This document shows, piece after piece, positions 18,104 through 57,707 of a stretch of 59,906 nt of DNA. The translations under genes and the position numbers were made by a program. The DNA comes from Candidatus Pacearchaeota archaeon (GTDB lineage Archaea; Nanobdellota; Nanobdellia; Pacearchaeales; GW2011-AR1), in contig JAFCGC010000003.1 in the NCBI GenBank assembly GCA_017608305.1, positions 1 to 59,906 of the forward strand, read 5' to 3'. The notes under the pieces are model-generated. The model saw nothing but the letters and a program-made list of their open reading frames with translations. It searched no databases and had not been told where the DNA came from. Positions within the stretch are counted from its first letter, which is position 1. Every line of letters begins with the position of its first letter.

Positions 18104-18111
18104 TTCTTACT

Positions 18112-24417: not shown

Positions 24418-24454
24418 TTAATCCAAAACAAAATAGAATATAAAAACTTAACTT

Positions 24455-24889: not shown

Positions 24890-24898
24890 ATTTAAAAA

Positions 24899-26041: not shown

Positions 26042-26095
26042 AATAAAGAGAAAATAAAATAGTTTTTATATTTTACTAAAAAATTCACAGAACAA

Positions 26096-26815
26096 TTATA
26101 AGCTTTCTATTGCTGTAGCAGTAATTATTACATCTCTTTGTCCAGCTGGAGCAGATATAGGAACTAATAACTGAAAGTTAATTTCTATTGTGTCGTCTGT
26201 ATCTAGAGCAAGGAATTCATCACAAACAAAAAGACCATCTCCACCTACATCACACGGATCTCCACTCCTACACACATCTTCCCAACCAGACCAAAAAGCT
26301 TCATCTCCGCCTACATCATCAATATCTTTGTCTGTACAAGAAGCTGTTGTACCTAAATCCTCAAATTGCCAGTTAAAATCATGAGTTGCTGTGGCAATAC
26401 AATTAGCATCATCATCACAAATAAATGTATCTGCATTCTCAGTAGTATCAACATAAAGATCTACATTAACATTTCCATAATTCTCAAGCTCTAATCCTCC
26501 ATCCATACCCACATCTAAAGGACAATCAGGAGGAGTACAATCCCAGTTAGCATCATTATAAGGAGAAGTTACTGAATCTAAAGTAGCAGGGTCAGTATTA
26601 ACAGATCCTGTTCCCCAATCAAGTGCATCTTCACCAACAACAAATCTAATATGGACGGCAGATTCAATCTCCACATCAGCAGTTCCTGTATCAAACTCTG
26701 CATAACCAGTAATTGAATTTAAATCTCCAACTTTATTTATAGTAACTAGTAAATTAAATAATGCAAATGCTACTGCAACCACAGCAACAATTGTTAAAAG
26801 ATTTGAGGATTTCAT
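26096..26815 (-). CDS. secreted, very acidic protein
   Basis: N-terminal hydrophobic segment followed by ITGYAEFDTGT, which is weakly reminiscent of SipW/TasA-class signals. Asp-rich body with several Cys. Confidence 0.5.
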   Translation of the reverse strand: MKSSNLLTIVAVVAVAFALFNLLVTINKVGDLNSITGYAEFDTGTADVEIESAVHIRFVVGEDALDWGTGSVNTDPATLDSVTSPYNDANWDCTPPDCPLDVGMDGGLELENYGNVNVDLYVDTTENADTFICDDDANCIATATHDFNWQFEDLGTTASCTDKDIDDVGGDEAFWSGWEDVCRSGDPCDVGGDGLFVCDEFLALDTDDTIEINFQLLVPISAPAGQRDVIITATAIESL

Positions 26816-27009
26816 TAACCTGTTCCTCCAGCAGTGCTTTTTTCAATAGTAAATCCAACACTTGCACTTTGTGTTGGTTGGGATGGTTGTTGTGTCAATG
26901 CTCTTGCAAAGTTATCACTAAAATCTGTTATATTACTAACAATTGCTAATGATGTTACAGATAACACAATTGTAACAAGCAACAACACCACAATAAGTTT
27001 TTCGTTCAT
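26815..27009 (-). CDS. small signal-anchored protein (hypothetical)
   Basis: 64 aa with an N-terminal TM. Its stop abuts the next ATG. Confidence 0.4.
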   Translation of the reverse strand: MNEKLIVVLLLVTIVLSVTSLAIVSNITDFSDNFARALTQQPSQPTQSASVGFTIEKSTAGGTG

Positions 27010-27088
27010 TTTTATCCCCTTTTTTATTAAAGTATAAAATACAAAACCCTTTATAAACTTTTTGTTGATTCAAAATATCTTAACAAGT

Positions 27089-28480: not shown

Positions 28481-28968
28481 TTCCTACCTCCCTCATATTT
28501 TGAATCATCCTTTTCAACCTCAACATATTCTCCTGCTTCTAAATCAAATTCCTCTTCCTCATTTTTAGTAACTTCTAAATCTACATTTCCTGAATTTTCT
28601 AATTCATAATTTTCTTTTCTTTCTCTCAAATCTAATCCCACAGAATCTTGAATTGAAAAGATCTTCACTTCACTCTCTCTTCCAAATCTTCCTCTAACTT
28701 TCCAATAATAATCTCCAGGAGGAAGAATCATGTCAGAACCTTCTTCTAGTGTGATAAAATTTTCAAAATTCTCATTTACAGAGAGTATTACTTTTTCTCC
28801 ATTTTCAATTTCAAAAACAAAATTCGGATTTTCAATAGTCATTCCATGTAAAGGATAAATCTGACTAGGCATAGTTGAAAATAATAAATAAATTAAAATT
28901 CCAACTACAAACACAGTTTCAACTATTAAAATTCTTTTTTCTATTTTTTTCCAATTTCTTTTTTTCAT
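28477..28968 (-). CDS. signal-anchored protein (hypothetical)
   Basis: 163 aa with an N-terminal TM. Its 3' end overlaps the downstream gene's start (ATGATGA). Confidence 0.5.
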   Translation of the reverse strand: MKKRNWKKIEKRILIVETVFVVGILIYLLFSTMPSQIYPLHGMTIENPNFVFEIENGEKVILSVNENFENFITLEEGSDMILPPGDYYWKVRGRFGRESEVKIFSIQDSVGLDLRERKENYELENSGNVDLEVTKNEEEEFDLEAGEYVEVEKDDSKYEGGRK

Positions 28969-38000: not shown

Positions 38001-40140
38001 CTAAAACAAGTGCGCTCGCACCTGCAACCATTGGCGCACTCATTGATGTTCCTGATTTAATTTCTGAAATTCCATTAATTCCTAAAACTTCTATATTTTT
38101 TCCAGGAGCAAATAAATCAGTAATTAAATTTACATTAGCAAAATCTGCAATATTATCTTGTTTGTCTGTAGCTGAAACCCTAACTGCTTGAGTTGCACAA
38201 CTAGGAGTCTTAATATTAGAAGAACCATCATTTCCTGTTGCAGCAACTACAAAAATTCCATTATCCACAGCATTATTAACAAATTCAGCAACAATATTTG
38301 TATCACAATAACCATCATAACTTCCAGCACCAATACTAAAACTAATTATATTTGCATTGTTGTTAATACACCATTGTAATCCTTCTAAAACATCACTTTC
38401 ATAACCAATTCCATTTGAATCAATTACTTTAGCAACTAAAATCTCAGCCCCAGGCGCTATTTTATTTATAACAGAAGCAACTTCTGTCCCATGACCATTA
38501 TCATCACTAGCATCATTATCTTCATTAACAAAGTCATAACCTGAAACATAAGACACAACACTAGAATCAACACCAGTATCAACTACACAAATACTCTTGC
38601 CCTGCCCTGTTAAACCAAATTCATCCCTAGTTTTAAAAGAACTAATAATATTTTCAGAATCTTCTAATAATACTAAAACTTCTTGATCAGGAATTATCTC
38701 TATTTCAAGGTCTTTTAAAAGTTCTAATTTATCTACATCAAGTTCAAGAACTTCAAGATTACTCAAACCTACAAGATCTTTACCAATAACAGTATCTCCT
38801 TTAATAATAACCCTAACTAATCTATCATCAATTAATAATTTTGAAATAACTTCTTGGTCTAATTTAACTTTATTAAATTTAATCACTTCATTTATTCTAT
38901 CTAACTTACTAATAATTGTAAAATTTGTATCATTAATCACAATAGTTTCATTAGGCAAAAGCTCAGACTCTTCAATTTCTCCAAAACTAATTATTTCACT
39001 CAAAGAAGCAATATTAAATTCTTCAAATATTAAATCTACTTTAAATTGTCCATCTTCTCCAATCAATCCTAAGCCATCTAAATCAAAACTCAACTCAATT
39101 TTTTCATCTCCTAAATATTCTTCACCAAATCCTTGCTCTGATTCAGAATAAGATGTTGAAACAATAACATTATTCTCCTCGATCACTAATTTAACCTCTT
39201 GAGAAGAACTAATAATTTCTGCTGTTTCTCCTTCTAAAAGACCATAAACAAAAGGATTTTCTCCTGTAATCACTTCTTCAATTATTAATTCAGGGGGAGA
39301 TGCCAATACAGAATCTTCAACAACAGGTTCACTTGACTCTTCAGAGTCTTCACTTGGTTCTTCTGTTATTTCTTCTTCAACAACTTCTTCAGGCTCATCA
39401 AGAACTGGTTCCTCAGAGTCTACTGGTTCTTCAATAGGAATTTCGGGTTCAGGAACAGGTTCAATTGGAATTTCTGGTTCTTGAGTTATATTTTCTGGGA
39501 TGTCTGTTTCATTTATAGGGATTTCTGGTTCATCAGAGCCTGTTATATTTTCAGGCGGAATCTCTGTTTCATTTTCAGGTTCTTGTGTTTGATTTCCTAA
39601 AATATCTGGCTCTTCAACTGTTTGTGTAATCATCAAAACAAAATCTACTTCTGGATAAATAGTTTTTTCACCAATAATTCCAAACCCTTCTCCAATACCA
39701 GATATTTCTATAGAACCAATATAAAACTCACCGTAATTTGTTGGGCCAGAAATTAAATTTTCTAAGAAAAATTCTTGTTCATCACCAACATTGTCAATTA
39801 AAACTCTTGTTGATTTAGGAATTAATTCGCCTTTTTGCAAATTTATTTTTACACTACCAGTGATGGGGTCACCTAAAACAGGAAGTTCATCAATTAAAAG
39901 CACAAATCTTTCTTCAGGAGCTAGATAAATTGTTTGTTGTAAATAATTCATGAACACAATTCCTGAAAAAAAGATTAATCCGAGTAGTGTAAAAGTTAAA
40001 ATAAAATTTAAAACAGAAGTTTTTTTCTCTTTATGTTTTCCTAAATATTTAGAAACAACTTTTCCATCTCTTTTATGACTATGATAAATATAAGGACCAT
40101 ATACTTTCCCTCCTCTTTTAATATATCTTTTATAAGCCAT
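29008..40140 (-). CDS. giant (3710 aa) multidomain surface protein: basic N-terminus, TM, acidic PE-rich linker, subtilisin-like S8 domain, Cys-rich CCGDD modules, beta-helix, 2x LamG, FG-GAP/VCBS-type repeats, Ig/Fn3-like C-terminus
   Basis: One uninterrupted ORF. S8 triad contexts VVDTGVD, HGTEVAS, GTSMSAP. PbH1-like NN(F/I)xxN repeats. LamG hallmarks WWRFNE...DELRVWNRALSEEEI and DGVRIFNRSLSEEQI. GDLDGDGLDD / DLNNDGKDD / GDLDNDGEME repeats. Confidence 0.9.
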   Translation of the reverse strand: MAYKRYIKRGGKVYGPYIYHSHKRDGKVVSKYLGKHKEKKTSVLNFILTFTLLGLIFFSGIVFMNYLQQTIYLAPEERFVLLIDELPVLGDPITGSVKINLQKGELIPKSTRVLIDNVGDEQEFFLENLISGPTNYGEFYIGSIEISGIGEGFGIIGEKTIYPEVDFVLMITQTVEEPDILGNQTQEPENETEIPPENITGSDEPEIPINETDIPENITQEPEIPIEPVPEPEIPIEEPVDSEEPVLDEPEEVVEEEITEEPSEDSEESSEPVVEDSVLASPPELIIEEVITGENPFVYGLLEGETAEIISSSQEVKLVIEENNVIVSTSYSESEQGFGEEYLGDEKIELSFDLDGLGLIGEDGQFKVDLIFEEFNIASLSEIISFGEIEESELLPNETIVINDTNFTIISKLDRINEVIKFNKVKLDQEVISKLLIDDRLVRVIIKGDTVIGKDLVGLSNLEVLELDVDKLELLKDLEIEIIPDQEVLVLLEDSENIISSFKTRDEFGLTGQGKSICVVDTGVDSSVVSYVSGYDFVNEDNDASDDNGHGTEVASVINKIAPGAEILVAKVIDSNGIGYESDVLEGLQWCINNNANIISFSIGAGSYDGYCDTNIVAEFVNNAVDNGIFVVAATGNDGSSNIKTPSCATQAVRVSATDKQDNIADFANVNLITDLFAPGKNIEVLGINGISEIKSGTSMSAPMVAGASALVLENETLSVDELKIRFKTTGLPISFEDINISRINVYNAVINNITMDLINVSANQSVGNESNYSLLGGNDECYLAIGDPDITPNFCESFACKAKSSLYEPICCELYEYVSPFYNTSSFSYEFGTYPSCCGDDAGEYVAYFNRVNLGGASNPCESSTEGACPTSGETIYACCNTSDNPRDCVLSNGTCYDFGDATVLGDGVMYCANLSTSKGGYWIDCDNDSLTCTDCSNDFGYNLGGEHCSATSGTDPYDCDTECCGDDAGENALYRKLDPTYTYPDNDLPNFSASISDNACCDNENDCIYESFCNGVVVGSPIVISGENLACASGLWLDCDSAAGGSTVCEVYCGYLDGWIKSGEAEVGEYDVVFEKDECCGDDDNEYIVENNLDLGDIACCDNANDCVNTGVCYSSGTETSCTEDTVSSCSSGSWSSENRNTDESACEEPSCTNLGEWLSTATQGDYCCGNNPGEDFEASGLFEGCCYNGNILNSGETDERILCYSGNLYECGTVSDDSGLATSIEHCGTAPESGRYCNIDGPTYWGLAKVNGCSCSSGAECDSGNCPSQDGVCCDTSCGGECEACLALKTGGNDGTCSAVSSGTDPDIECAQEDCGTGNCNGNKACGWFTSGERNCGICETCTDATSFDCVFIAPSGTEDIEGVLTCLGSQACDGLGFCLTKNTYSCEGDTECLSSDCNTKPDDTWACTDESDECAEQDGLGVDIGYFTCYNNDNFSCSQESVYNTIDGWSSTDCATLSSWDSDGKDNWDTAGYLIDYSDSCLGGSCELTYKRDYCSGSSVDDYYVGYYSYYGTYVSSHDTNSDDTCTSVQAIFRDASCTLFGCPDGIGGSCAKRVYQNRDRDLAQVYCEKTAGTCIAQTWIAGALSPGPCCGDDGASDNFCESGIGTFKACEAGSYEIDPDTSSNACDCGLEGIANGVSCNQGSCYGESLFFETGTTGNCCGDDSGENFVSSTMEIEYEACCDSITDCAGPDACYAEGERYNDDYECLNGDWESIIQYNTCEPTFPNVDLVITTDLVCDETYDDLKVNSLNVTSDGDLTIDSISLNVEDFTLVENKGNFTIKNSKNTIWQNGNLTIEGDFILENSTLRMNGTNDGGVGINVTSTGNMTIKAKSNITNGGGSDPTFIFIVENGADFFMNKSSLSYCSGNRTSFKIGLKIYADDVKIIGNVFSNNAQPTFFGNNFLISGNYFTNNGGIALTVEGDNCNVSNNNFTNNGLGLRISGDNNLIFDNIFSYSSVGLDLKDSAENNNLTNLSIFENNIAGIQVSSSNNNISSSKIKDNEVGIEVQSSAKLLVFNSLIQDSTSYDIRTVSTTQTSVLNLINTTFDENKILFFDGGWSNLGSVDVKWYFRVNVSDELGNSLENVEVSVWNKTNDLIFTSYTNSLGQIDREILMEYSQTKIAKTFATNYTIQAKKDPSTTFVSLNLTESTFLNILLDVVPPEINFVFPTFDNNTYTNYTSIYVNVSILEDNLNESATYINWSGENAGASLVQSASSVWNLYVNKTSLSDGTYEYFAYLKDLSENFNQTETRKISIDTITPLIEFVPPTLTDDSFVRGNSVYVNVSVSDANDVTSFMDWNKSLVGWWRFNEFTGTTAYDSSSWSNNGTLYDFNPSNQDGDSPPVWTSAGKFGPGLNFDGIDDYVLVEKSDSLTDFENFTVSAWIKPKGTCSECYIFDVYDGGGIEDGDFLLYMVGDEIRSYVENGDTFVFSSVPIGVWTHVLVVMDAGTSYKLYFNGVLESTDSFIQSGPFFDPDKENNFTIGATQEGSTHFFNGTIDELRVWNRALSEEEIDASYNAGLNRLYRNFTSLDSGEYEYVAYVQDLAGNLNQTEIRTVDVNTYPVISNVVLNSSLGHNSSLENLSVYYEIIDADSTPITITDWRLGGESIAVLNMPFDTEETSLTFDIIRDYSTYQNNATIYGNPVWEISEKVGGAYKFDGDDYINCGSDSSLDITDEITFESWIKTSMAHETGDNFGVLAKALNPDWTWQLRFGGLSEGGPSDRLGIQFNQDNVIPGVWVNLDQDLTTGQWYHVVGVYNGTSALIYLNGDLKDTALLNQIQSSNSPLLIAQDGWNNYFSGTIDGVRIFNRSLSEEQIKILYDSGMADKHFENLSSFETKLGDNWSVALTPNDALGDGETVLSNTLEIINSAPEYQSINLLPSLPYTKDHLQCGFNVTDFDSPLLNVEVKWYSNGSNFLNQTISDYTQSTLYFSNLSYTYTHYDDDFYCRINANDGVESTGWYQSQTRKIRNYSTSLSITDEDNQNSKTQVLFTANYSETDSNVDIGDLGIFLWDTGNIGKVRTIRAIDLSKTGRKDGLIIGINEAHNQFFNALGVNVFNSPNTGSGQSIFVGDLDSDNYEGEFLEGTASISVINNLGQNIWQEGTFSELAISSIGDLDGDGLDDDFVIVQGSGDKNILAYTGENNIWIQDWSYNCVGITGIDKIVVEDLNNDGKDDVVFSSEGNTSVTALNSSGEYLWKNKGKVPLAVGDLDNDGEMEILSGNSQYLFVYNFTGGLKDSLHWDFEPGDNPTEIIISDIYNNGDKYVVTSFFSAKIFVYDSSLNYIWNVSKGFSSIDLLGIDIDDDTEMEFIAMNNNSQSHMQAFIIESNGGIVLIYDSLKSYPSGTFGPRPSFGKHPELDAGDFNYDGVADIGFVSYVSNNPNEGYLDVIQDSRCKIDFNDSVSGRLSWNLTSNLWEYNRSFEKGGLYKYNITCHKGAYEEKISSGEVFVLLNSLPTVTLVSPANDSSNIDRTPTFVWDGVDADGEADIQEYELEISCSDSVCSPDDYKLISIITGSPVDESYTLPDPDFLQYLFDNTYYYTWRVRARDSVGWGDWSEKWNLKIQSEVSISITDPPSNPDPTIDFGTMQPDETKATDPTPPNPFTLENDGNCIANVDIKATQLWNTRSSASSDYRYKVQEKDTGSFTSGTTSWANIPIDPTEETFLVEFKWNAAEDEAYVDLELTVPGATEGAGSRSSTLTFTASLNE
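30000..30960 (-). other. FG-GAP/VCBS-like Asp-rich Ca-binding repeats (approximate bounds)
   Basis: Repeated GDxDxDGxxD loops. Confidence 0.6.
31660..33230 (-). other. two LamG/concanavalin-like lectin domains (approximate bounds)
   Basis: See the motifs listed for the giant ORF. Confidence 0.7.
34960..37810 (-). other. about 950-aa cysteine-rich region with repeated CCGDD...ACCDxxxDC modules (approximate bounds)
   Basis: Six CCG(D/N)(D/N) motifs and four ACC(D/N)xxxDC motifs at recurring spacing. Confidence 0.7.
37900..38620 (-). other. subtilisin-like (S8) peptidase domain inside the giant ORF (approximate bounds)
   Basis: Asp in DTGVD near 38585, His codon 38491-38493, Ser codon 38044-38046. 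Confidence 0.75.
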
Positions 40141-46762: not shown

Positions 46763-47101
46763 CTAATCACCGTCGAGAAGTTCAATCACCTTTCTATATT
46801 TTCCATTGATAGGAATCTCCACAAGTTTTACAAATCTCTGTTTAGGCCTAATTAAAGACTTAAACCTCTCAACCCTTTTAATTTCAATAATTTTATTTTT
46901 ATCGTCGAGCCAAAGAGCATAAAAAGGAAAAAACACAAAAAAAGAGTGAATAGGTTCTCTAACTAATTTCCCAAAATCAAACAAAAGAGCACTAGCCTTA
47001 CTTCTTTTCTTAAACATTAAACCAATTCCTCTTCTTAAAAAGTCGAGTTTCTCTACATCAATTTTAAATCTCTTATTTTTATATCTTAAACCAATTTGCA
47101 T
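46763..47101 (-). CDS. DUF192-like protein
   Basis: Pattern GLMF...PIHSFFVFFPFYALWLDDKNKIIEI resembles DUF192 (COG1430). Confidence 0.5.
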   Translation of the reverse strand: MQIGLRYKNKRFKIDVEKLDFLRRGIGLMFKKRSKASALLFDFGKLVREPIHSFFVFFPFYALWLDDKNKIIEIKRVERFKSLIRPKQRFVKLVEIPINGKYRKVIELLDGD

Positions 47102-47477
47102 TTTTCAAGGCCTCTTTTTTTGCTTTGTAAGTCTGATAATGAAGATTAACATTTTTATCTGTGACATGATCATGATGTTTAAATCCCCCTCCAAAGGTTT
47201 TAGGAATATGCATAAGTTCGTGGATTATAACTTTAAGTTGTTCTTCTCTACTAAGTTTATCAAATCTTTCTGATAAAAATTCAAGAGCATAAAAAGCCTT
47301 AACCCCCATTGCTTTTTGCATGACTTTACCAAGAGCATGACATCTTGCAATTGTTCTTTTAGTAGAAGTCCCATAACTCCTGATACACTTAACAAAACCA
47401 ATTTTAATATGGGGAAATAATAACCGAGATATTTCTTCTGCAATTTCCTGTAATTCAAAATCATATTCATATTTCAT
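47079..47477 (-). CDS. predicted metallopeptidase (COG4900-like)
   Basis: IIHELMHIPKTFGGGFKHH motif. Confidence 0.6.
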   Translation of the reverse strand: MKYEYDFELQEIAEEISRLLFPHIKIGFVKCIRSYGTSTKRTIARCHALGKVMQKAMGVKAFYALEFLSERFDKLSREEQLKVIIHELMHIPKTFGGGFKHHDHVTDKNVNLHYQTYKAKKEALKNANWFKI

Positions 47478-47839
47478 TTTAAATTAAACTCCCAAAAACC
47501 TAATTGCCCTTTAGCAGAAATTGATTTAATTCTTTTAACATCCCTTAATGCAAATCCATAAGTCCCAAAAATACTATTAGCTAAATGTAACACTCTATCT
47601 TTTTTATGTTCCTCATCATCTTTATATCTTTTAACATCAACTAACCTAGCTTTCCCTACAATAAACCCGCAAGGAAGATCAGTAAATCCAAACTTTTCCA
47701 TAGCCATAGAGTCAGGTATTTTCGAAGCATGAATCAAAAACTCCCCTCTAAATTTAGTATTCCACTTTCTTAACTCTATCTTTTTCTTACCCTGCAATAT
47801 CAACTCTGCAAAAGGTTGCTTAATAGATAAGGTTTTCAT
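47474..47839 (-). CDS. ASCH-domain protein
   Basis: LSIKQPFAELILQGKKKIELRKW is typical of the ASCH/PUA-like fold. Confidence 0.7.
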   Translation of the reverse strand: MKTLSIKQPFAELILQGKKKIELRKWNTKFRGEFLIHASKIPDSMAMEKFGFTDLPCGFIVGKARLVDVKRYKDDEEHKKDRVLHLANSIFGTYGFALRDVKRIKSISAKGQLGFWEFNLK

Positions 47840-47896
47840 AACAACAAAAAACAAAATAAGATTTATATAGATTCTCTTCTACTCTTAAGTTAATAA

Positions 47897-51268: not shown

Positions 51269-51389
51269 GAGCCTGTAGCTCAGTCTGGTCAGAGCACTGC
51301 TCTTATATGAGTGTGGTTTGTTAAAATCACTTTCTCTTGGAGATCTCTAAGAGAGGCAGGGGTCCACGGTTCAACTCCGTGCAGGCTCA
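51269..51389 (+). tRNA. tRNA-Ile(UAU) with a 46-nt intron at 37/38
   Basis: Hand-folded. Acceptor GAGCCTG/CAGGCTC, D arm GCTC/GAGC, anticodon stem CTGCT/GGCAG, loop C-T-TAT-A, T arm CACGG-TTCAACT-CCGTG, discriminator A. Mature length 75 nt. Confidence 0.8.
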
Positions 51390-51931: not shown

Positions 51932-52056
51932 GCCCCGATAGTTCAGAGGCCAAGAATTCTGCCCTTTCAAGGTAAGATTCTCTGAATCTTCCATTTCTCC
52001 TCTCCTCTGAGGATTGAAGAAAGGCAGTGACCCGGGTTCGAATCCCGGTCGGGGCG
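51932..52056 (+). tRNA. tRNA-Glu(UUC) with an about 52-nt intron at 37/38
   Basis: Hand-folded. Acceptor GCCCCGA/TCGGGGC, D arm GTTC/GAAT, anticodon stem CTGCC/GGCAG, loop C-T-TTC-A, T arm CCGGG-TTCGAAT-CCCGG. Confidence 0.85.
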
Positions 52057-52287
52057 TTTTCTAAATTTAAATATTAGTTTAGTGCTTAAATTTATTTAAC
52101 AGAATTATTTTTCTAAAACATATGATTTGTCCCCAAATTATATAAATACAGAGAAAAATATATAAAGAGGAGACGTTTTGTAATGTTGATTTTTGTTATT
52201 TTGTAATAAAGACACAACTTTTATAAGGGGTTGATAAATCTCAAAGGGAACTTTATAATAAAAAATCAAAATTTAACACATTTAAAA

Positions 52288-53043
52288 ATGAAAAAAATAG
52301 GAATTGTTGGAGGAGTAGGACCAGAAGCATCAAATAAATTTTGTGAACTCTTAATAAAAAGAAAAAGAAAACTAAAAGACCAAGACAATATTCCATTTAT
52401 ACACTATTGTAATCCTCAAATACCAGATAGAACAGAATTTATCTTAGGGGAAGGAGAAGATCCTATTCCAGAATTAATAAGAAGTTGTTTAGAATTAGAA
52501 AAAATCAATGCAGACTTTATAGTCATACCTTGTAATACTGCTCATTGTTTTTTAGACAAAATCCAAGAAAATGTATCTATCCCAATAGTTGATATGACTA
52601 AAGTCTTAATAAAAAAAATAATAACAGAAAGACCCCTCATAAAAAGAGTTGGAGTCTTAGCAACAACAGGAAGTATAAAAAGCAGATTATTTGAAGATTA
52701 CCTTAACAGTTTAGGAATAGAAACAGTTGCTCCAGATGAAATAGAACAAGAAGCATTAGTCATGGAAGCGATTTATGGGAAAAAAGGAATAAAAACAGGG
52801 AAAAAAGCGCATCCAAAAAGATTATTATTACAAGCAGCAGAAAATCTAATTCAACAAGGCGCAGAAGCAATAATTTTAGGGTGTACAGAAATTCCTTTGG
52901 TTCTCAAACAAAAAGATTTTGCAATAAAATTATATGATCCAATGGACATTCTTGCAAAAGAAATTGTCCAATATGTAGAATCTGAAGAAAAAACAGAGGT
53001 TATAACTGTAAAATATGTCATTACAAATCCTTCAAAACAATGA
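52288..53043 (+). CDS. aspartate racemase (Asp/Glu racemase family)
   Basis: GIVGGVGPEAS plus two catalytic Cys contexts, IPCNTAH and LGCTEIP. Start at MKKIGIVGG. Confidence 0.8.
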   Translation: MKKIGIVGGVGPEASNKFCELLIKRKRKLKDQDNIPFIHYCNPQIPDRTEFILGEGEDPIPELIRSCLELEKINADFIVIPCNTAHCFLDKIQENVSIPIVDMTKVLIKKIITERPLIKRVGVLATTGSIKSRLFEDYLNSLGIETVAPDEIEQEALVMEAIYGKKGIKTGKKAHPKRLLLQAAENLIQQGAEAIILGCTEIPLVLKQKDFAIKLYDPMDILAKEIVQYVESEEKTEVITVKYVITNPSKQ

Positions 53044-53921
53044 AAATTGCGATCATCTATTTCAAAGAACTACAATGGACAGAAGAGCAACTAATTTTAT
53101 TCTTTAAAAAACAAAATATTGAAACAGACCCAATTGAAGTAAAAGAACTGGATCCTTCACGACTCAAAGAATACTCTTTAATCTTAAACAGAATATATGC
53201 GAGTACAGCCAATGAAAACCAATTTGATTTTAAGGAATTCATAGAAAAATTAGAGGAAATAGAAAAAGCAGGGATCAAAGTGATAAATTCTAGTTTTTGT
53301 TCAATGTGTGATTATAGCAAACACTTTGCTGCACAAGCAATGGAAAAACAAAATATTCTCACTCCAAAAACAATAAAGGTATCATCTCTAGAAGAAATTA
53401 AAAAATTTCTCTCAGAAGAAAACCCAATAATTTTTAAACCAGATACAGGAGGAAGGGGTGCAAGTATCTATAAAATAGATTCAATTGAAAAAATACCTGA
53501 AGATATTTTTTCTCAAAAAGACACAAAATCCCAAGATTTTATTATCCAACCTTTAGCAAAATCAATAATTCCTATTGATTATAGGATATTTGTATGCGGA
53601 GAGTATGTCTTATGTGTTAATGCAAGAACTCTTGTAAATGGTTGGCTCGGAAGCAGAAGTCAAGGCTCAGAAATATCATTATTAGATGAATTTCCAAAAG
53701 AACTTAAAGAAATAGCAATTAAAGCTACAAAAACAATAGATGCAGAAATAAATAGTTTAGACATTGTCCAAACTAATAAAGGGTTTTCAATAATAGAAAA
53801 CAACCCAACTCCAAATTTTAATCAAAATTATGTTGATTCTTTTGGATTTAACCCCATAGAAATTTTAGTAAACCATCTAATTAAAAATTATCTTCAAATC
53901 CCGCTTCCAAAAGAAAAATGA
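53040..53921 (+). CDS. ATP-grasp ligase (RimK/LysX-like)
   Basis: IIFKPDTGGRGASIYKI, FIIQPLA, DYRIFV, SLDIV...IIENNPTPNF. Confidence 0.75.
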   Translation: MKIAIIYFKELQWTEEQLILFFKKQNIETDPIEVKELDPSRLKEYSLILNRIYASTANENQFDFKEFIEKLEEIEKAGIKVINSSFCSMCDYSKHFAAQAMEKQNILTPKTIKVSSLEEIKKFLSEENPIIFKPDTGGRGASIYKIDSIEKIPEDIFSQKDTKSQDFIIQPLAKSIIPIDYRIFVCGEYVLCVNARTLVNGWLGSRSQGSEISLLDEFPKELKEIAIKATKTIDAEINSLDIVQTNKGFSIIENNPTPNFNQNYVDSFGFNPIEILVNHLIKNYLQIPLPKEK

Positions 53922-54877
53922 ATCTAGGAATTATTGCCAGAATTGATTATATTAATGAAATTCCAAAAGGAGACAAAATAAATTATATTAAATTCATCAC
54001 AGATTATCTCAGGAAAAAAAGAGAATTAGTTTTAATTGATTGGAGAGATATTGATAAAAATCTTGAAACATCTAGATATTTATTTTGCAATAAAGAAGGA
54101 ATTCATTTAAAAGAGAGAAAAACTCTTCTAACTAAAATTTGTGATAGTTTGTTTATTAAACAACTTGGAAAAATTCATAAAGAAAAAGAAAATTTCTTAA
54201 ATTTTCTTGATTCTCTAGAAAAATTTAGAGGAAAAATTATAAACCCTCCGCAGACAATAAAAAACAATTTATCAAAACAATATCTACTAGACTTCCAGGA
54301 AAAAGGATTTCCAATAATTCCTACAATTGAAATAAAAAACCAAATTTCACTTAAAGAATTAAAAAAATTAGATTTTTCTTTTAACCAACACTATGAAGAT
54401 AAAGCAAAAGACCTAGTAGTTAAACCAAAATTATTTGGAGAACAGGGATTTGCAGTAAGAAAATTAAGTTCATTTAAAGATCAAAAAGAATTTAAAAGAT
54501 ATTTAAAGCAAAATTCACCAATAATAGTCCAACCTTTAATAAAAGAAATTTCTGAAAAAGGGGAAAACTCTCTTATATTTCTTAAAGAAAAATTCATACA
54601 TGGAGTAAACAAATTTACAGGAAAATTCAAAATAAATTGTTGTGAAGGAATACAATGCTCTATTTATAACCCCTCTCAAAAAGAATTTGAAATAAGTAAA
54701 AAAATATTAGACTTATGGCCAGATCAAACAGATTATATGAGAATAGATTTAATCCCTTACCAAAATAAAGCTCTTATCAGTGAGATAGAAGTTGTTAATC
54801 CTGCATTTTACATAGAAAATGTGCTAGAACTAAAAGATAATTTTGCAAAAAAATTAGAAGATTTTTTTTATAAATAA
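53918..54877 (+). CDS. ATP-grasp-like ligase 2
   Basis: VVKPKLFGEQGFAVRKL, IIVQPLI, MRIDLI...ISEIEVVNPAFY. Confidence 0.55.
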   Translation: MNLGIIARIDYINEIPKGDKINYIKFITDYLRKKRELVLIDWRDIDKNLETSRYLFCNKEGIHLKERKTLLTKICDSLFIKQLGKIHKEKENFLNFLDSLEKFRGKIINPPQTIKNNLSKQYLLDFQEKGFPIIPTIEIKNQISLKELKKLDFSFNQHYEDKAKDLVVKPKLFGEQGFAVRKLSSFKDQKEFKRYLKQNSPIIVQPLIKEISEKGENSLIFLKEKFIHGVNKFTGKFKINCCEGIQCSIYNPSQKEFEISKKILDLWPDQTDYMRIDLIPYQNKALISEIEVVNPAFYIENVLELKDNFAKKLEDFFYK

Positions 54878-54878
54878 A

Positions 54879-55832
54879 ATGACAGAAGTAAAATTAATTG
54901 TTGGGGCAAATTCAATAGAAAGAATCACAACAAAACACAAATGGTATAACCCAGAACGTTATGAAGCGTTTGTTGAAGTTTTTGGAGAAGGAAATTTTGG
55001 ATTAGTTGCATCACCAGGACTAGAAAGAGAAATAATCACAGGAGAACTCTGTGAAACCGTTGTTTTAAATAAAGATCTAGAAATATTAAAAACAGAAAGA
55101 AGTGGAATTAAATCAAAATTAATCTTAGCAAGTACTTTTGAAAATCCAGATGAGACAAAAGTCTCAAGAAAAAACATGGAGAGATTTATGAATTACCTAG
55201 AAAAACAAAGAATTAAAGGTAATATAAAACACTTAGTAAACTCAAGAAAATCAAGCTTATACGAAGACAAATTAACATGCTTAGATCTAAAAGAAAAAGG
55301 AGTCAAAACACCTCCAACATATCACTTTAATACATTTAAGGAACTTAAAGCACACGTAGAAACAAATTCAAAAAATTATATTGTCAAACATAGGTTTGGA
55401 GAAGCAGGATCACAAGTATCAAAAATTAATTCCTCAAACATAGATTCTGTTCAAAATTATAATATAGAAGATTACATTGTTCAAGAAGAAATAGATCTGG
55501 TTTCTGAATCAAGAATGATTTTTGTCAACAAAGATTTTCTAGGAGCAAGAATAATTCACGATAGAAATCGTCCGTGGGACAAAAATAAGGATATCAAAAG
55601 AAAACACCAAGTTCTACCATATAAACCTTCAATCCAGGAAACAAAAGATTCAAAAAGAATCATGGAAATTACAGACACAGATTTAGGTTGTGTTGATTGG
55701 GCTTTTACAAAAAACAAAGAAAGATATTTTTTAGAATTAAATGGGGTTGGAACAGGATTAGGATATACTGGAGGACCCTATAATTTTAATAAAGAGGCAG
55801 CAAAAAGACTAAAAGAAAAATATCTAAAATGA
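54879..55832 (+). CDS. ATP-grasp-like ligase 3
   Basis: YIVKHRFGEAGSQVSKI, YIVQEEI, ESRMIFV, CVDWAF...YFLELNGVGTG. Confidence 0.55.
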   Translation: MTEVKLIVGANSIERITTKHKWYNPERYEAFVEVFGEGNFGLVASPGLEREIITGELCETVVLNKDLEILKTERSGIKSKLILASTFENPDETKVSRKNMERFMNYLEKQRIKGNIKHLVNSRKSSLYEDKLTCLDLKEKGVKTPPTYHFNTFKELKAHVETNSKNYIVKHRFGEAGSQVSKINSSNIDSVQNYNIEDYIVQEEIDLVSESRMIFVNKDFLGARIIHDRNRPWDKNKDIKRKHQVLPYKPSIQETKDSKRIMEITDTDLGCVDWAFTKNKERYFLELNGVGTGLGYTGGPYNFNKEAAKRLKEKYLK

Positions 55833-56677
55833 GTTTAGTAGCAATTATAACTCCTTCAAATCACTGTCCAAAAAAAGAAATAAATCAAGCAAAAAAGAAT
55901 CTAAAAAAATTAGAGTTCACAGAAATATTGGATTTTACTTCTAGTAAAAAATTTCTCGATAGATGGGCTGGATCTCCAAAAGAAAGATTAAAGTTATTTC
56001 AAAAAGCATTAAAATCCAAATCAAAAACAGTGTTTGCTTGTAGAGGAGGATCAGGAGTATTTCATTTTATTTTTAAACTAGATTTCAATGAAATAAAAAA
56101 GACAAATAAAACCTTTGCAGGATATAGCGATCTAACTCCCTTACTCAATAGTGTTTATCAAAAATCAGGATTAATTGCACTACACAGTCCAATGCCTACA
56201 AAAAATCTAGATAAAAAAAGCCTTCAAGCACTAAAAGATGCTCTTAAAAGAAAAAATTATGGTATAAATTTTTCAAAAAAACACATTATAAATCTTCCTA
56301 ATAAAAAAATAATTCAAGAAAAGATTATGGGGGGAAATCTAGAGAGGATTAGAGATCTTGTTGTTAGCCCATTAAAAATCAATTTCAACAATAAAATCAT
56401 ATTTATAGAAGAAGTGGATAAAACAGAACAAGGCATATTCAACTTATTAATAACTCTAAAACAATCAGGATTGTTCAAACCAAAAGCCCTCCTAATAGGA
56501 CACCTAAATATAAATAACAAAAGACTAATAATCAAAATGTTAAAACATCTTTTTCCAAAAATCCCCATTATTCTAGATCTCCCCTTTGGACACACTCTTC
56601 CAAACATAACAATTCCAATAGGAGCCAAAACAACAATTAATTTTAAAAAAGGGAAGATTTTATTTTCTTTTCCTTGA
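55829..56677 (+). CDS. S66-family LD-carboxypeptidase (LdcA/MccF-like)
   Basis: CRGGSG, nucleophile motif FAGYSDLT, IFIEEVD (Glu), LPFGHT (His). Confidence 0.8.
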   Translation: MSLVAIITPSNHCPKKEINQAKKNLKKLEFTEILDFTSSKKFLDRWAGSPKERLKLFQKALKSKSKTVFACRGGSGVFHFIFKLDFNEIKKTNKTFAGYSDLTPLLNSVYQKSGLIALHSPMPTKNLDKKSLQALKDALKRKNYGINFSKKHIINLPNKKIIQEKIMGGNLERIRDLVVSPLKINFNNKIIFIEEVDKTEQGIFNLLITLKQSGLFKPKALLIGHLNINNKRLIIKMLKHLFPKIPIILDLPFGHTLPNITIPIGAKTTINFKKGKILFSFP

Positions 56678-56715
56678 TCCAAAAATCCTTTAAACCCTCT
56701 CTTCTTCTTTTCCCT

Positions 56716-57537
56716 ATGAGAAAAAGATATAGTTTTTCATCAAGAAGAACAGGCCAAGCCAAAGATGCAAAAAACATCAAAAAACAAAAACCCAAATTTC
56801 CAGAAGTAGTTGAAAAACTCATAAAAGAATCAGAAATAATACTCCAAATACTTGATGCTAGATTCATAGATGATACAAGAAATTTAGAAATTGAAAAATA
56901 CCTAAAAGATAAAAGAAAAAAATTAATCAATGTAATAAATAAATCTGATTTAGCTCAAATTAAATACATTAAACCAAGATTAATCCCTTATGTGGTTACT
57001 TCTTGCAAAAAAAGAACAGGAATAAAACAATTAAGAGAAAAAATAAAAACAATTTCTAAACAAATTAAAAAAGAAAAAGTAATTGTGGGAATTATTGGTT
57101 ATCCTAACACAGGAAAATCTTCACTAATTAATTTACTTATAGGGAAAAAATCTGCTGGCACAGGAGCAGAAGCAGGTTATACAAAAGGGTTACAAAAATT
57201 AAAACTAGATAAAAAAATATTATTGTTTGATAGTCCAGGAGTGATTCCAAAAGAAGAATACACATCAGTAAAAAACAAAAAACTTACCAAACATGTAAAG
57301 GTGGGAGCAAGAACATGGAGCCATGTTAGAAACGCAGAACAAATAGTGGCAGAATTAATAAAAGAATTTCCAAATATATTACAAAATAAGTATAAAATTC
57401 AAACCAAAAGTCCAGAGCACCTTCTTGAAAAACTAGGTAGAAAAAAGAATTTCCTAAAAAAAGGAAATGAAGTTGATATTGACAGAACAGCTAAATCTAT
57501 CTTAAAAGATTGGCAAGACGGAAAGATTAAAATTTAA
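56716..57537 (+). CDS. circularly permuted GTPase (YlqF/RbgA-Nog2-like)
   Basis: Motif order G4 NKSDL, then G1 GYPNTGKSS, then G3 DSPG. Start at the internal MRKRY is assumed. Confidence 0.75.
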   Translation: MRKRYSFSSRRTGQAKDAKNIKKQKPKFPEVVEKLIKESEIILQILDARFIDDTRNLEIEKYLKDKRKKLINVINKSDLAQIKYIKPRLIPYVVTSCKKRTGIKQLREKIKTISKQIKKEKVIVGIIGYPNTGKSSLINLLIGKKSAGTGAEAGYTKGLQKLKLDKKILLFDSPGVIPKEEYTSVKNKKLTKHVKVGARTWSHVRNAEQIVAELIKEFPNILQNKYKIQTKSPEHLLEKLGRKKNFLKKGNEVDIDRTAKSILKDWQDGKIKI

Positions 57538-57707
57538 TTTTTCTCATCAACTTCTAAAATCATTATTTTCAAAGGGAAATAATAAGAACATTTAGGATTA
57601 TTAATTATATCATAATCACATCCATAACAAGAATCTACAGGTCTTCCTTCAATAAAGTGTGTTTTAGTTTCAAAAATTTTTTGCCAACACCTCTCTTGTA
57701 AATCCAT
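57534..57707 (-). CDS. small Cys-containing ORF (57 aa, not in ORF track)
   Basis: MDLQERCWQKIFETKTHFIEGRPVDSCYGCDYDIINNPKCSYYFPLKIMILEVDEKN. Starts 2 nt after the upstream gene's stop. Confidence 0.3.
   Translation of the reverse strand: MDLQERCWQKIFETKTHFIEGRPVDSCYGCDYDIINNPKCSYYFPLKIMILEVDEKN

What the first reader, a model, noticed from the sequence alone, without database searches (positions are those of the whole stretch)
52288..56677. Operon of Asp racemase, three ATP-grasp ligases and an S66 LD-carboxypeptidase
Seen: five genes are joined by ATGA or 1-nt junctions (53040/53043, 53918/53921, 54877/54879, 55829/55832). The racemase has both catalytic Cys motifs. All three downstream proteins have ATP-grasp nucleotide and Mg motifs but are mutually divergent. 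The last has the Ser-Glu-His contexts of LdcA/MccF peptidases. Established: an Asp racemase paired with an ATP-grasp D-Asp ligase builds peptidoglycan cross-bridges in some Firmicutes. ATP-grasp L-amino-acid ligases make small peptide antibiotics. MccF-type S66 enzymes confer self-immunity or recycle L-D peptide bonds. Inference: this is ribosome-independent synthesis, with trimming or immunity, of a short D-Asp-containing peptide or peptide modification. That would be unexpected in a presumably wall-less, reduced archaeon. No precursor ORF or exporter is evident.
Basis: partly seen in the sequence, partly recalled or inferred. Interest (0 to 1): 0.7.

Follow-up and report, generated by a model that had tools for sequence, protein, structure and literature searches.

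The report
Racemase plus three-ligase peptide operon
A tiny symbiotic archaeon (Woesearchaeota) carries a conserved, undescribed operon of an aspartate racemase, three different ATP-dependent amide-bond ligases and a peptidase that cuts L-D bonds, which most likely builds and trims a short peptide containing a D-amino acid, of unknown identity and purpose.

Summary
Five + strand genes at 52288-56677 are joined by 4-nt overlaps or a 1-nt gap. They encode an AspR-type racemase, three mutually distant ATP-grasp ligases (AG1-AG3) and an S66 Ser-Glu-His peptidase.

The order racemase-AG1-AG2-AG3 recurs in 14 sequence-distinct loci besides the window, all from low-GC archaeal contigs (named ones: Woesearchaeota, one "Thorarchaeota" bin).
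- S66 follows AG3 in six lineages on both main branches of the cassette tree. It looks ancestral and repeatedly lost, and once an M18 aminopeptidase sits there.
- One contig fuses AG1 and AG2.
- Racemase + AG1 is a wider module, about 113 protein clusters including a bacterial contig, with varying extra ligases and peptidases. One locus pairs AG1 with a PLP alanine-racemase-like gene instead.

No ligase reaches the curated cut-off of RimK, MptN, CofF, LysX, DcsG or graspetide maturases. No precursor, carrier or exporter gene is conserved nearby.

Best reading: cytoplasmic, ribosome-independent assembly of a short peptide, or a peptide tail, containing D-Asp, with peptidase turnover. The product, the acceptor and the biological role remain unknown. 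I rate it a new variant of a known kind, with moderate to high interest.

The parts
52220..52226 (+). TATA-like TTTATAA in the AT-rich spacer between the tRNA gene and the racemase; possible archaeal promoter of the operon
   Evidence: Read directly from the sequence. It lies 62-68 nt upstream of ATG 52288. This is inference only, because the sigma-70 scan does not apply to archaea.
52288..53043 (+). AspR-type PLP-independent amino-acid racemase (251 aa from the ATG; a TTG at 52231 would give 270 aa but overlaps the TATA-like box)
   Evidence: Pfam PF01177 scores 150.8 bits and TIGR00035 scores 210.6 bits, above its cut-off of 93. It matches P. horikoshii AspR (1jfl) at E 6e-55. In PhAspR numbering, Cys82, Cys194, Arg48, Lys164, Thr84, His86 and Thr124 are invariant in 15 sequences. 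It is the most conserved gene of the cassette, with 62% mean pairwise identity.
53040..53921 (+). AG1: RimK/LysX/MptN-like ATP-grasp amidoligase, the invariant partner of the racemase
   Evidence: Pfam RimK scores 39.8 bits. The best NCBIfam scores are rimK_fam 86.4 (cut-off 143.4), MptN 82.9 (350) and LysX 74.6 (275.6). The PDB profile search finds ArgX 3vpb at 2e-16 and RimK 7qys at 2e-15. The family holds 113 clusters and was adjacent or next-but-one to a racemase gene in every context examined.
53918..54877 (+). AG2: divergent ATP-grasp ligase of the DcsG/GshB/RimK branch
   Evidence: The only significant PDB sequence hit is DcsG 6jil at 1.5e-14. The AF2 model has pLDDT 93. Foldseek finds DcsG at 4e-18 (TM 0.67, 17% identity), then GshB and RimK. 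The NCBIfam DcsG score is 58.8 against a cut-off of 360. Only 18 clusters were found in the 5.8-billion-protein collection. In L020 it is fused in frame to AG1.
54879..55832 (+). AG3: divergent ATP-grasp ligase with a conserved Arg-rich DRxRPW...RKH segment
   Evidence: The AF2 model has pLDDT 92. Foldseek matches ArgX, MdnC, PsnB, RimK, DcsG and Ddl about equally (TM about 0.6, 12-18% identity). An exhaustive HMMER search of 1.84 billion representatives gave 35 proteins at E<=1e-30. Its more distant relatives are mostly RimK/MptN-like. Invariant residues are listed.
55829..56677 (+). S66 LD-carboxypeptidase-family serine peptidase (LdcA-like); accessory fifth gene
   Evidence: Pfam S66 N and C domains score 84.7 and 66.7 bits, both above cut-off. 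The best PDB hit is the muramoyltetrapeptide carboxypeptidase 6uuk at 9e-27, aligned end to end. Ser100, Glu194 and His255 are invariant. It follows AG3 in the window, L006, L016/17, L018/19, L021 and L026, and sits in the variant locus L025.

Best explanation
This is a cytoplasmic, ribosome-independent peptide-assembly operon.

**Proposed mechanism.**
- The AspR-type racemase turns L-Asp into D-Asp, or acts on a very similar acidic amino acid.
- AG1 is always linked to a racemase gene, so it most likely takes the D-amino acid into the first amide bond.
- AG2 and AG3 each add one further amide bond by the ATP-grasp mechanism (carboxylate to acyl-phosphate, then attack by an amine).
- The product would be a defined short peptide of up to four residues carrying a D-residue.
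- The S66 Ser-His-Glu enzyme, where present, removes a C-terminal D-residue from an L-D bond. That would serve turnover, editing or recovery of the product rather than its synthesis.

**Shown.** The gene identities, intact catalytic residues, tight operon structure, strict synteny across lineages, the modular racemase + AG1 core, and the absence of any neighbouring precursor, carrier or exporter gene.

**Inferred.** The Asp specificity, the order of the steps, a free peptide as product, and the direction and role of the peptidase.
For: - **Operon and identities:**
- **Racemase:** about 45% identical to the biochemically characterised P. horikoshii AspR. Both Cys, Arg48 and Lys164 are invariant.
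- **Ligases:** all three keep the ATP-grasp catalytic positions as invariant columns and fold as ATP-grasp enzymes.
- **Synteny:** the four-gene order is conserved in every locus that holds AG2 or AG3, which is 14 sequence-distinct loci besides the window.
- **Fusion:** AG1 and AG2 are fused in frame in L020.
- **S66 history:** it occurs in both major branches of the cassette tree and has diverged as much as the ligases (43-54% identity), so it co-evolved with them. Its triad is invariant.
- **Peptidase swap:** an M18 (aspartyl-aminopeptidase family) gene takes the post-AG3 position in the L004 group. This fits an acidic terminal residue.
- **Variant loci keep the same logic.** They are Rac+AG1+AG2-like (L023), Rac+AG1+AG3-like+S66+C39-like peptidase (L025), AG1+YheCD-type ligase+PLP alanine-racemase-like+C39-like peptidases (L024), and Rac+AG1+a weak circularly permuted ATP-grasp in a bacterial contig (L022).
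- **Location:** none of the five N-termini looks like a signal peptide (by eye).
Against: - No product, substrate or activity is known for any of these proteins.
- AG1's nearest characterised relatives (RimK, LysX/ArgX, MptN) all extend a carboxylate on a protein or cofactor rather than make free peptides, so an unlinked acceptor is a real possibility.
- AspR-family enzymes include broad-specificity members. NCBIfam's CuyB (cysteate racemase) model also scores above its cut-off, although the P. horikoshii AspR control does too.
- S66 is missing in at least four lineages, so it is not needed for the core function.
- Loci with two ligases and loci with three both exist, so the product length is not fixed across the family.
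- Sampling is limited to metagenomic contigs, and there are no expression data.
Confidence: 0.42

Rival explanations
1. Post-translational peptide tailing of a protein or carrier, in the manner of RimK/RimB or LysX/LysW. The ligases would add D-Asp and other residues to the C-terminus or a side-chain carboxylate of a protein encoded elsewhere. S66 or M18 would trim the tail.
For: - AG1's best structural and sequence relatives are ArgX/LysX and RimK, all of which act on protein C-termini.
- AG3's distant relatives are RimK/MptN-like, and some are fused to RimB-type peptidases.
- Pairing a ligase with an opposing peptidase is the known RimK/RimB logic (my own knowledge).
Against: - No conserved small ORF or carrier gene sits next to any cassette.
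- Archaea lack bacterial S6, and no LysW-like gene is seen.
- No protein-tailing ligase is known to me to use D-amino acids.
- All scores against the RimK, LysX and MptN equivalog models are far below cut-off.
Confidence: 0.2
2. Salvage or re-tailoring of bacterial peptidoglycan peptides. These archaea may prey on or attach to bacteria. S66 would trim imported L-Ala-D-Glu-DAP-D-Ala-type tetrapeptides, the racemase would convert the released acidic D-amino acids, and the ligases would re-use the fragments.
For: - S66 is closest to muramoyltetrapeptide carboxypeptidases.
- Woesearchaeota and Pacearchaeota carry giant lytic-transglycosylase proteins and are proposed bacterial episymbionts or predators (PMC8204110, PMC9723730).
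- One such 2052-aa SLT protein lies about 4 kb from the cassette in L001.
Against: - Catabolic salvage has no need for three ATP-consuming ligases.
- S66 is the dispensable part while the ligases are the conserved part.
- No peptide transporter is linked to the cassette.
- The racemase is AspR-like, not MurI-like.
Confidence: 0.1
3. Synthesis of a peptide component of the cell envelope. This would be a D-amino-acid cross-bridge or stem peptide on a glycan or S-layer, analogous to racD-asl cross-bridge synthesis or to pseudomurein peptide ligation.
For: - A racemase next to an ATP-grasp ligase is the racD-asl pattern (PMC13631041).
- LD-carboxypeptidases act on wall stem peptides.
- The module also occurs in a bacterial contig that carries sigma-70 and DnaG.
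Against: - No glycosyltransferase, MraY-like, Mur-ligase or flippase gene is linked in any locus.
- All five proteins look cytoplasmic.
- The pseudomurein ATP-grasp candidate is annotated as CPS-large-subunit-like (PMC11915815), unlike these RimK/GshB-type ligases.
Confidence: 0.1
4. Graspetide-type RiPP maturation, with AG3 (and AG2) making side-chain lactone or lactam bridges on a ribosomal precursor.
For: There are weak matches of AG3 to graspetide maturases: TIGR04192 at 1.5e-7 and AMdnB 7m4s at 3e-4.
Against: - Scores are far below cut-off (31 against 230), and there is no MvdD pre-ATP-grasp domain hit.
- No conserved precursor ORF was found.
- Foldseek does not prefer graspetide enzymes over ArgX, RimK or Ddl.
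- A free-amino-acid racemase has no role in a RiPP pathway.
- The same window holds a much better graspetide-type maturase (E 2e-60) with a 64-aa ORF directly upstream, at 5530-6698. AG3 matches that protein only at E 0.003.
Confidence: 0.03
5. Cofactor tail extension (MptN/CofF-like glutamylation) or synthesis of a D-cycloserine-like cyclic product by the DcsG-like AG2.
For: - AG1 matches MptN and CofF at sub-threshold scores.
- AG2's nearest solved structure is DcsG.
Against: - The scores are MptN 82.9 (cut-off 350), CofF 43.1 (300) and DcsG 58.8 (360).
- No methanopterin, F420 or other Dcs pathway genes appear in the window or the related loci.
- AG2 is only 16-17% identical to DcsG.
Confidence: 0.03

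Closest known systems
racD-asl (aspartate racemase + D-aspartate ligase Aslfm/AslA) of Enterococcus and Lactococcus
   Same: A PLP-independent Asp racemase gene is coupled to an ATP-grasp ligase that consumes the D-Asp it makes (PMC13631041).
   Different: - Here there are three ligases of the RimK/GshB/DcsG branch instead of one Asl-type enzyme.
- The host is an archaeon with no linked UDP-MurNAc-peptide pathway.
- A peptidase gene is attached.
- Homology to Asl itself was not tested.
RimK / RimB (poly-alpha-glutamate tailing of ribosomal protein S6 and its trimming peptidase)
   Same: AG1 and the distant relatives of AG3 belong to the RimK-like branch. A ligase is paired with an opposing peptidase.
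   Different: - Scores are below the RimK family cut-off (86.4 against 143.4).
- There is no S6 in archaea.
- Here there are three different ligases and a racemase.
- The peptidase is S66 or M18, not a retropepsin.
LysX/ArgX-LysW amino-group carrier system
   Same: The best PDB match of AG1 is ArgX 3vpb at 2e-16, aligned over its full length.
   Different: - No LysW-like carrier and no LysY/Z/J/K genes are present.
- The LysX equivalog score is 74.6 against 275.6.
DcsC/DcsG of D-cycloserine biosynthesis
   Same: A racemase is paired with a DcsG-like ATP-grasp that acts on a D-amino-acid derivative. DcsG is AG2's closest solved structure.
   Different: - AG2 is 16-17% identical to DcsG, and the equivalog score is 58.8 against 360.
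- The racemase family differs (AspR-type here, DapF-type DcsC there).
- None of the other Dcs genes is present.
LdcA (muramoyltetrapeptide LD-carboxypeptidase) and MccF, family S66
   Same: Both S66 domains and the Ser-Glu-His triad are present. The end-to-end alignment is to LdcA-type enzymes.
   Different: - The host is an archaeon.
- The protein is short (282 aa).
- The LdcA equivalog score is 91 against 378.
- It is encoded as the last gene of a ligase operon rather than in a murein-recycling or microcin context.
ATP-grasp L-amino-acid ligases (BacD/YwfE, TabS, RizA/B) and Ddl
   Same: These enzymes make short peptides without a ribosome, one ATP-grasp enzyme per bond.
   Different: - They belong to different ATP-grasp branches.
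- Those systems are bacterial secondary-metabolite or wall pathways.
- None combines three ligases with an Asp racemase and an S66 peptidase.

Membership tests
Asp/Glu racemase superfamily, AspR subfamily (TIGR00035 / PF01177) | Family model score above the curated cut-off | tested here: met
   PF01177 scores 150.8 (cut-off 31). TIGR00035 scores 210.6 (cut-off 93.1).
Asp/Glu racemase superfamily, AspR subfamily (TIGR00035 / PF01177) | Two catalytic cysteines (Cys82 and Cys194 of P. horikoshii AspR) | tested here: met
   The PCNTAH and GCTE motifs align to 1jfl. Both Cys are invariant in 15 sequences.
Asp/Glu racemase superfamily, AspR subfamily (TIGR00035 / PF01177) | Basic residues Arg48 and Lys164, which I recall contact the side-chain carboxylate | tested here: met
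   Both are invariant. Their role in Asp recognition rests on my memory of the PhAspR structure papers and was not verified here.
Asp/Glu racemase superfamily, AspR subfamily (TIGR00035 / PF01177) | Racemisation of aspartate | not testable with these tools
   This needs an enzyme assay.
Cysteate racemase CuyB (NF052483) | Equivalog score above the cut-off and specific for the family | tested here: inconclusive
   The score is 213.4 against a cut-off of 190. The verified Asp racemase of P. horikoshii scores 249.6 on the same model, so the model does not separate CuyB from AspR.
ATP-grasp superfamily (AG1, AG2, AG3) | ATP-grasp fold | tested here: met
   AF2 models have pLDDT 93 (AG2) and 92 (AG3). 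There are hundreds of Foldseek matches to ATP-grasp enzymes at E down to 4e-18. AG1 matches Pfam RimK and ATP-grasp_3 above cut-off.
ATP-grasp superfamily (AG1, AG2, AG3) | Conserved ATP-binding Lys, Gly-rich loop, hinge Gln, catalytic Arg and Mg-binding Asp/Glu/Asn | tested here: met
   These are invariant columns:
- AG1: K133, G137-G138-R139, Q170, D180/R182, D241, E253, N255.
- AG2: K169, G174-E175-G177, Q205, R275/D277, E289/E291/N294.
- AG3: K170, G174/G177, Q202, E210/R212, D273, E286/N288.
I assigned the roles by position in the motif, not by structural superposition.
RimK family / S6-glutamate ligase (TIGR00768, PRK10446) | Score above the curated cut-off | tested here: not met
   - AG1: 86.4 against 143.4, and 26.2 against 331.
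- AG2: 22.3.
- AG3: 24.5.
MptN / CofF cofactor glutamate ligases | Equivalog score above the cut-off | tested here: not met
   AG1 scores 82.9 on MptN (cut-off 350) and 43.1 on CofF (cut-off 300).
LysX/ArgX amino-group-carrier ligases | Equivalog score above the cut-off, and a LysW-type carrier gene in the cluster | tested here: not met
   LysX scores 74.6 against 275.6. No conserved small ORF lies next to any of the 11 lineages compared.
D-cycloserine synthetase DcsG (NF058666) | Equivalog score above the cut-off | tested here: not met
   AG2 scores 58.8 against 360 and is 16-17% identical to 6jil.
Graspetide (MvdC/MvdD/grasp-with-spasm) maturases | Family score above the cut-off, a pre-ATP-grasp leader-binding domain and an adjacent precursor peptide | tested here: not met
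   AG3 scores 31.1 against 230, 22 against 425 and 16.5 against 475. It has no PF21068 hit and no conserved precursor. For contrast, window ORF 5739-6698 scores 204.7 on MvdC and 54.4 on PF21068 and has a 64-aa ORF directly upstream.
Peptidase family S66 (LdcA/MccF) | Both S66 domains above the cut-off | tested here: met
   PF02016 scores 84.7 (cut-off 25). PF17676 scores 66.7 (cut-off 23.7).
Peptidase family S66 (LdcA/MccF) | Ser-Glu-His catalytic triad | tested here: met
   GYSD (Ser100), FIEE (Glu194) and FGHT (His255) align to the same motifs of 6uuk. All three are invariant in 7 cassette orthologues.
Muramoyltetrapeptide carboxypeptidase LdcA (PRK11253 equivalog) | Equivalog score above the cut-off, and activity on L-Ala-D-Glu-DAP-D-Ala | tested here: not met
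   The score is 91.1 against 378. Activity is not testable here.
D-aspartate ligase Asl (racD-asl system) | Homology to Aslfm, and a UDP-MurNAc-pentapeptide acceptor | not tested
Only the racemase-ligase adjacency was checked, and it holds in every locus.

The most novel reading that the evidence does not exclude
Ultra-small episymbionts (Woesearchaeota and relatives, plus a bacterial contig labelled Patescibacteria) share a modular, previously unrecognised assembly line. An amino-acid racemase works with two or three dedicated ATP-grasp ligases to make a defined oligopeptide containing a D-amino acid, and a dedicated L-D peptidase recycles it. This would be the first assigned use for AspR-derived D-aspartate in Archaea. 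The product could be a mimic of a murein stem peptide or another molecule used at the interface with bacterial hosts.
Probability: 0.18. Interest if true: 0.8.

Novelty: new variant of a known kind. Interest (0 to 1): 0.6.

Why it matters
- **D-amino acids in Archaea.** Archaeal Asp racemases, and the free D-Asp I recall being reported in hyperthermophilic archaea, have as far as I know no known downstream use. The 2026 review I read names archaeal AspR enzymes but gives no archaeal pathway that consumes D-Asp (PMC13631041). An operon that ties an AspR orthologue to three ligases and an L-D peptidase gives a concrete, clonable pathway to test that question.
- **DPANN biology.** DPANN archaea are thought to have almost no biosynthetic capacity. 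Keeping four or five genes of ATP-costly peptide synthesis across deep divergence (ligases 35-45% identical) argues that the product matters to their lifestyle.
- **Breadth.** The same racemase + AG1 module occurs with different extra ligases and peptidases, AG1 also occurs with a different racemase type, and one bacterial contig carries the module. This points to a wider, unexplored family of small D-peptide pathways.
- **Enzymology.** AG2 and AG3 define small ATP-grasp families with no characterised member.

Tried and rejected
- **Cysteate racemase.** The CuyB label from NCBIfam was rejected as uninformative, because the verified P. horikoshii AspR scores higher on the same model.
- **Graspetide RiPP.** Rejected: sub-threshold scores, no leader-binding domain and no precursor. 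The same window holds a much better graspetide-type maturase elsewhere.
- **Carrier or precursor ORFs.** An all-against-all comparison of 20-110-aa ORFs within 2 kb of the cassette in 11 lineages found only shadow ORFs inside the conserved genes and neighbourhood-specific genes. The 85-aa gene after the cassette in the L001 and L007 groups sits just upstream of r-protein genes (S15, S3Ae) and is absent elsewhere.
- **Defence system.** There were no PADLOC hits.
- **Regulatory RNA.** Rfam at gathering thresholds found only the two tRNAs.
- **Bacterial promoter and terminator scan.** It is not meaningful for an archaeon.
- **Distant bacterial relatives of AG2.** These lie on Vibrio, Rhizobium and Gemmatirosa megaplasmids at 24-26% identity. 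The two Vibrio loci examined show an unrelated context (iron ABC transporter, pseudoazurin) and gave no functional lead.
- **Pseudomurein link.** The candidate pseudomurein ATP-grasp is annotated as CPS-large-subunit-like, not RimK-like (PMC11915815).
- **Literature.** Seven completed searches found no description of this gene combination.
- **YlqF-type GTPase (56674-57537).** It overlaps the S66 stop only if its TTG start is used. In L020 it follows AG3 after a gap, and in L018 it lies upstream on the other strand. I treat it as a neighbour, not a part of the operon.

Full report
**1.

The window has five + strand ORFs at the stated positions. They are the racemase (52288-53043), AG1 (53040-53921), AG2 (53918-54877), AG3 (54879-55832) and S66 (55829-56677). 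They are joined by three ATGA overlaps and one 1-nt spacer.

Upstream lie two tRNA genes of 121 and 125 nt that Rfam detects and ARAGORN does not, which fits archaeal intron-bearing tRNAs. An AT-rich spacer with a TATA-like TTTATAA at 52220-52226 follows them. That box argues for ATG 52288 rather than TTG 52231 as the racemase start.

The window is about 30% G+C throughout. Its other genes are typical of a DPANN genome:
- gyrase, a MoxR-DUF58-VWA cluster, Kae1 and an Elp3-type radical SAM protein;
- GTPases;
- a 3710-aa subtilase/laminin-G surface protein.

**2. What the five proteins are.**

*Racemase.* It scores far above the Asp_Glu_race and TIGR00035 cut-offs. It aligns over its whole length with the crystallised aspartate racemase of Pyrococcus horikoshii at E 6e-55. 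In a 15-sequence alignment the identity to that enzyme is 41-47%. Cys82, Cys194, Arg48, Thr84, His86, Thr124 and Lys164 (PhAspR numbering) are invariant.

NCBIfam would also call it a cysteate racemase (CuyB, 213 bits against a cut-off of 190). I ran the P. horikoshii enzyme as a control and it scored 250 bits on that model. The label therefore carries no extra information.

*The three ligases.* All keep the ATP-grasp catalytic positions as invariant columns. They are only remotely alike, with hhalign probabilities of 48-97% at 19-29% identity.
- **AG1** is RimK/LysX/MptN-like. Its PDB profile hits are ArgX 3vpb at 2e-16 and RimK at 2e-15. It stays below every curated cut-off (rimK_fam 86 against 143, MptN 83 against 350, LysX 75 against 276, CofF 43 against 300).
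- **AG2** has one meaningful PDB sequence hit, D-cycloserine synthetase DcsG at 1.5e-14. Its confident model (pLDDT 93) matches DcsG, then glutathione synthetase and RimK, at TM about 0.67 and 14-17% identity.
- **AG3** (pLDDT 92) matches ArgX, the graspetide cyclases MdnC and PsnB, RimK, DcsG and Ddl about equally, at TM about 0.6.

*S66.* The protein has both family domains above cut-off and aligns end to end with an LdcA-type muramoyltetrapeptide carboxypeptidase (6uuk, 9e-27). MccF proteins match only in pieces. Ser100, Glu194 and His255 are invariant in seven orthologues. It is well below the LdcA equivalog cut-off (91 against 378).

None of the five N-termini resembles a signal peptide, so I take the system to be cytoplasmic.

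**3. Conservation.**

AG2 and AG3 belong to very small families.
- The word-indexed search of 5.8 billion proteins found 18 clusters for AG2 and 20 for AG3.
- An exhaustive HMMER search of 1.84 billion representatives with the AG3 profile found 35 proteins at E<=1e-30.
- The next, more distant relatives are mostly RimK/MptN-like.

Every contig that could be examined carries racemase-AG1-AG2-AG3 in the same order and mostly with overlapping stops and starts. The loci are L001-L021 and L026, which make up 14 sequence-distinct loci besides the window.

The named records are a Ca. Woesearchaeota MAG, an unclassified "archaeon" MAG and one "Thorarchaeota" bin.

Mean pairwise identity is 62% for the racemase and 41-45% for the ligases, so the block has stayed intact across deep divergence. 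In L020, AG1 and AG2 form a single 614-aa reading frame (70% and 68% identical to the window proteins). That supports physical cooperation between the two, although it rests on a single assembly.

**4. The fifth gene.**

S66 directly follows AG3 in the window, L006, L016/17, L018/19, L021 and L026. It is absent in the L001 group, L007, L008 and L020. The L009 contig ends too soon after AG3 to tell.

In a neighbour-joining tree of the concatenated four proteins, the S66-bearing loci fall in both main branches. The S66 proteins are 43-54% identical, about as diverged as the ligases. The simplest reading is that S66 was part of the ancestral operon and was lost several times.

In the L004 group an M18-family aminopeptidase gene occupies the position after AG3. 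As I recall, that family includes the aspartyl aminopeptidases. The peptidase is therefore an accessory function, and both versions fit a product with a terminal acidic or D-residue.

**5. A wider module.**

The AG1 family is much larger, with 113 clusters at E<=1e-10 and a sharp drop in score after them. The records are labelled Woesearchaeota, Pacearchaeota, "archaeon", Thorarchaeota and Patescibacteria. All five contexts I could still look up contained a racemase gene.

| Locus | Host evidence | Gene content |
|---|---|---|
| L026 | "Thorarchaeota" bin | the full five-gene set |
| L023 | archaeal | racemase + AG1 + AG2-like only |
| L025 | 841-kb contig | racemase + AG1 + AG3-like + S66 + C39-like peptidase |
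| L024 | same genomic position as L025 in a related genome | AG1 + YheCD-type ATP-grasp + PLP alanine-racemase-like + two C39-like peptidases |
| L022 | bacterial (sigma-70, DnaG) | racemase + AG1 + weak circularly permuted ATP-grasp + two radical-SAM genes |

The invariant logic is an amino-acid racemase plus AG1, one or two further ligases, and often a peptidase.

**6. Mechanism.**

*Established chemistry (ATP-grasp superfamily, my own knowledge).* Each enzyme phosphorylates a carboxylate and lets an amine attack it, forming one amide bond.

*Inference from the anatomy.*
- The racemase supplies D-Asp.
- AG1, its constant partner, uses it.
- AG2 and AG3 add further residues, giving a peptide of up to four residues.
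- The S66 enzyme hydrolyses a C-terminal L-D bond for turnover or editing.

I put about 0.4 on a free small peptide as the product. I put about 0.2 on a peptide tail on an unlinked protein or carrier, which is what AG1's characterised relatives do. Smaller weights go to peptidoglycan-fragment salvage and to an envelope peptide.

The salvage idea draws on published proposals that small-genome Woesearchaeota and Pacearchaeota attack bacterial walls with giant lytic-transglycosylase proteins (PMC8204110, PMC9723730). One such gene lies near the cassette in L001. However, salvage does not explain three conserved ATP-consuming ligases alongside a dispensable peptidase.

**7. What it is not.**

- **Not a graspetide locus.** AG3 scores 31 against 230 on the best graspetide model, lacks the leader-binding domain and has no precursor. 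The window offers an internal contrast at 5530-6698. There a 64-aa ORF precedes an MvdC-type ATP-grasp that scores 205 bits on that model (still below its cut-off of 425), and AG3 matches that protein only at E 0.003.
- **Not RimK, MptN, CofF, LysX or DcsG** by their curated thresholds.
- **Not a known defence system**.

**8. Novelty and limits.**

Seven completed full-text searches found no description of this gene combination. A 2026 review of microbial D-Asp names archaeal AspR enzymes (P. horikoshii, T. litoralis) but describes no archaeal pathway that consumes D-Asp (PMC13631041).

The parts belong to known superfamilies, and the ligase-plus-peptidase logic is familiar. I therefore class this as a new variant of a known kind rather than something categorically new.

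The limits are these:
- Everything about the substrate, the order of steps, the product and the role is inferred.
- All related sequences are metagenomic.
- The taxonomic labels of some bins may be wrong.
- I could inspect only a sample of the AG1-family contexts.

Noticed in passing
window 5530-7329 (+): This is a separate candidate graspetide RiPP locus. A 64-aa ORF (C-terminus ...TVTVCTWRGIPTIDDF) lies directly upstream of a 319-aa MvdC/MvdD-type ATP-grasp maturase. That maturase scores 204.7 bits on TIGR04185 (E 2e-60, below the cut-off of 425) and 54 bits on the Pfam MvdD pre-ATP-grasp domain. A 209-aa protein with a weak ChaN/Tiki match follows.
   Followed up: partly
window 51269-51389 and 51932-52056 (+): Two tRNA genes of 121 and 125 nt are found by Rfam (54 and 51 bits) but missed by ARAGORN. 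This fits archaeal tRNAs with introns.
   Followed up: no
window 29008-40140 (-): A 3710-aa ORF carries a subtilase S8 domain, two Laminin_G_3 domains and a Big_13 domain. It is a giant surface protein typical of DPANN genomes. Upstream of it lie several ORFs with no family match (22309-28968).
   Followed up: no
window 14688-22029 (-): This is a MoxR AAA ATPase, DUF58 and VWA gene cluster, next to a 1305-aa protein with no clear domains.
   Followed up: no
window 47079-47854 (-): A putative phage metallopeptidase (PF18894) and an ASCH-domain gene lie in tandem. They may be a remnant of a mobile element.
   Followed up: no
window 2805-3623 (-) and 4552-5457 (+): A short radical SAM/SPASM protein (272 aa) and a Fic-domain protein lie near the graspetide-like locus.
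   Followed up: no
L020 2729-4573: AG1 and AG2 are fused into one 614-aa reading frame, 70% and 68% identical to the window proteins. This locus lacks S66 although it shares the window's YlqF-type GTPase neighbour.
   Followed up: yes
L024 6001-10282 and L025 5198-9287: Two related genomes carry different versions of the module at the same position, between r-protein genes and ftsZ. L025 has an Asp/Glu-type racemase + AG1 + an AG3-like ligase + S66 + DUF3335. L024 has AG1 + a YheCD-type ATP-grasp + a PLP alanine-racemase-like gene + two C39-like peptidases.
   Followed up: partly
L024 10334-10432 and L025 9358-9456: A conserved 32-aa ORF with an acidic C-terminal half (MRKK.IKLLQN...EE.D..D..EL.H.AM) lies between the DUF3335 peptidase gene and ftsZ in both loci. 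Whether it relates to the module is unknown.
   Followed up: no
L022 5220-10409: A bacterial contig (sigma-70 and DnaG nearby, labelled Patescibacteria) carries racemase + AG1. A 428-aa weak circularly permuted ATP-grasp and two radical SAM genes, one with a SPASM domain, follow.
   Followed up: partly
L001 14145-16984: A 2052-aa protein with a lytic-transglycosylase (SLT) domain starts about 4 kb downstream of the cassette. This is the protein class proposed to let Woesearchaeota and Pacearchaeota attack bacterial walls (PMC8204110).
   Followed up: no
L006 5735-6192 (-): A ParE toxin / VapB-like antitoxin pair lies directly after the S66 gene.
   Followed up: no
window 57534-57707 (-): A 57-aa ORF downstream of the GTPase gene is conserved with L020 6549-6740 (48% identity over 56 aa, E 1e-14). 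Its function is unknown.
   Followed up: no
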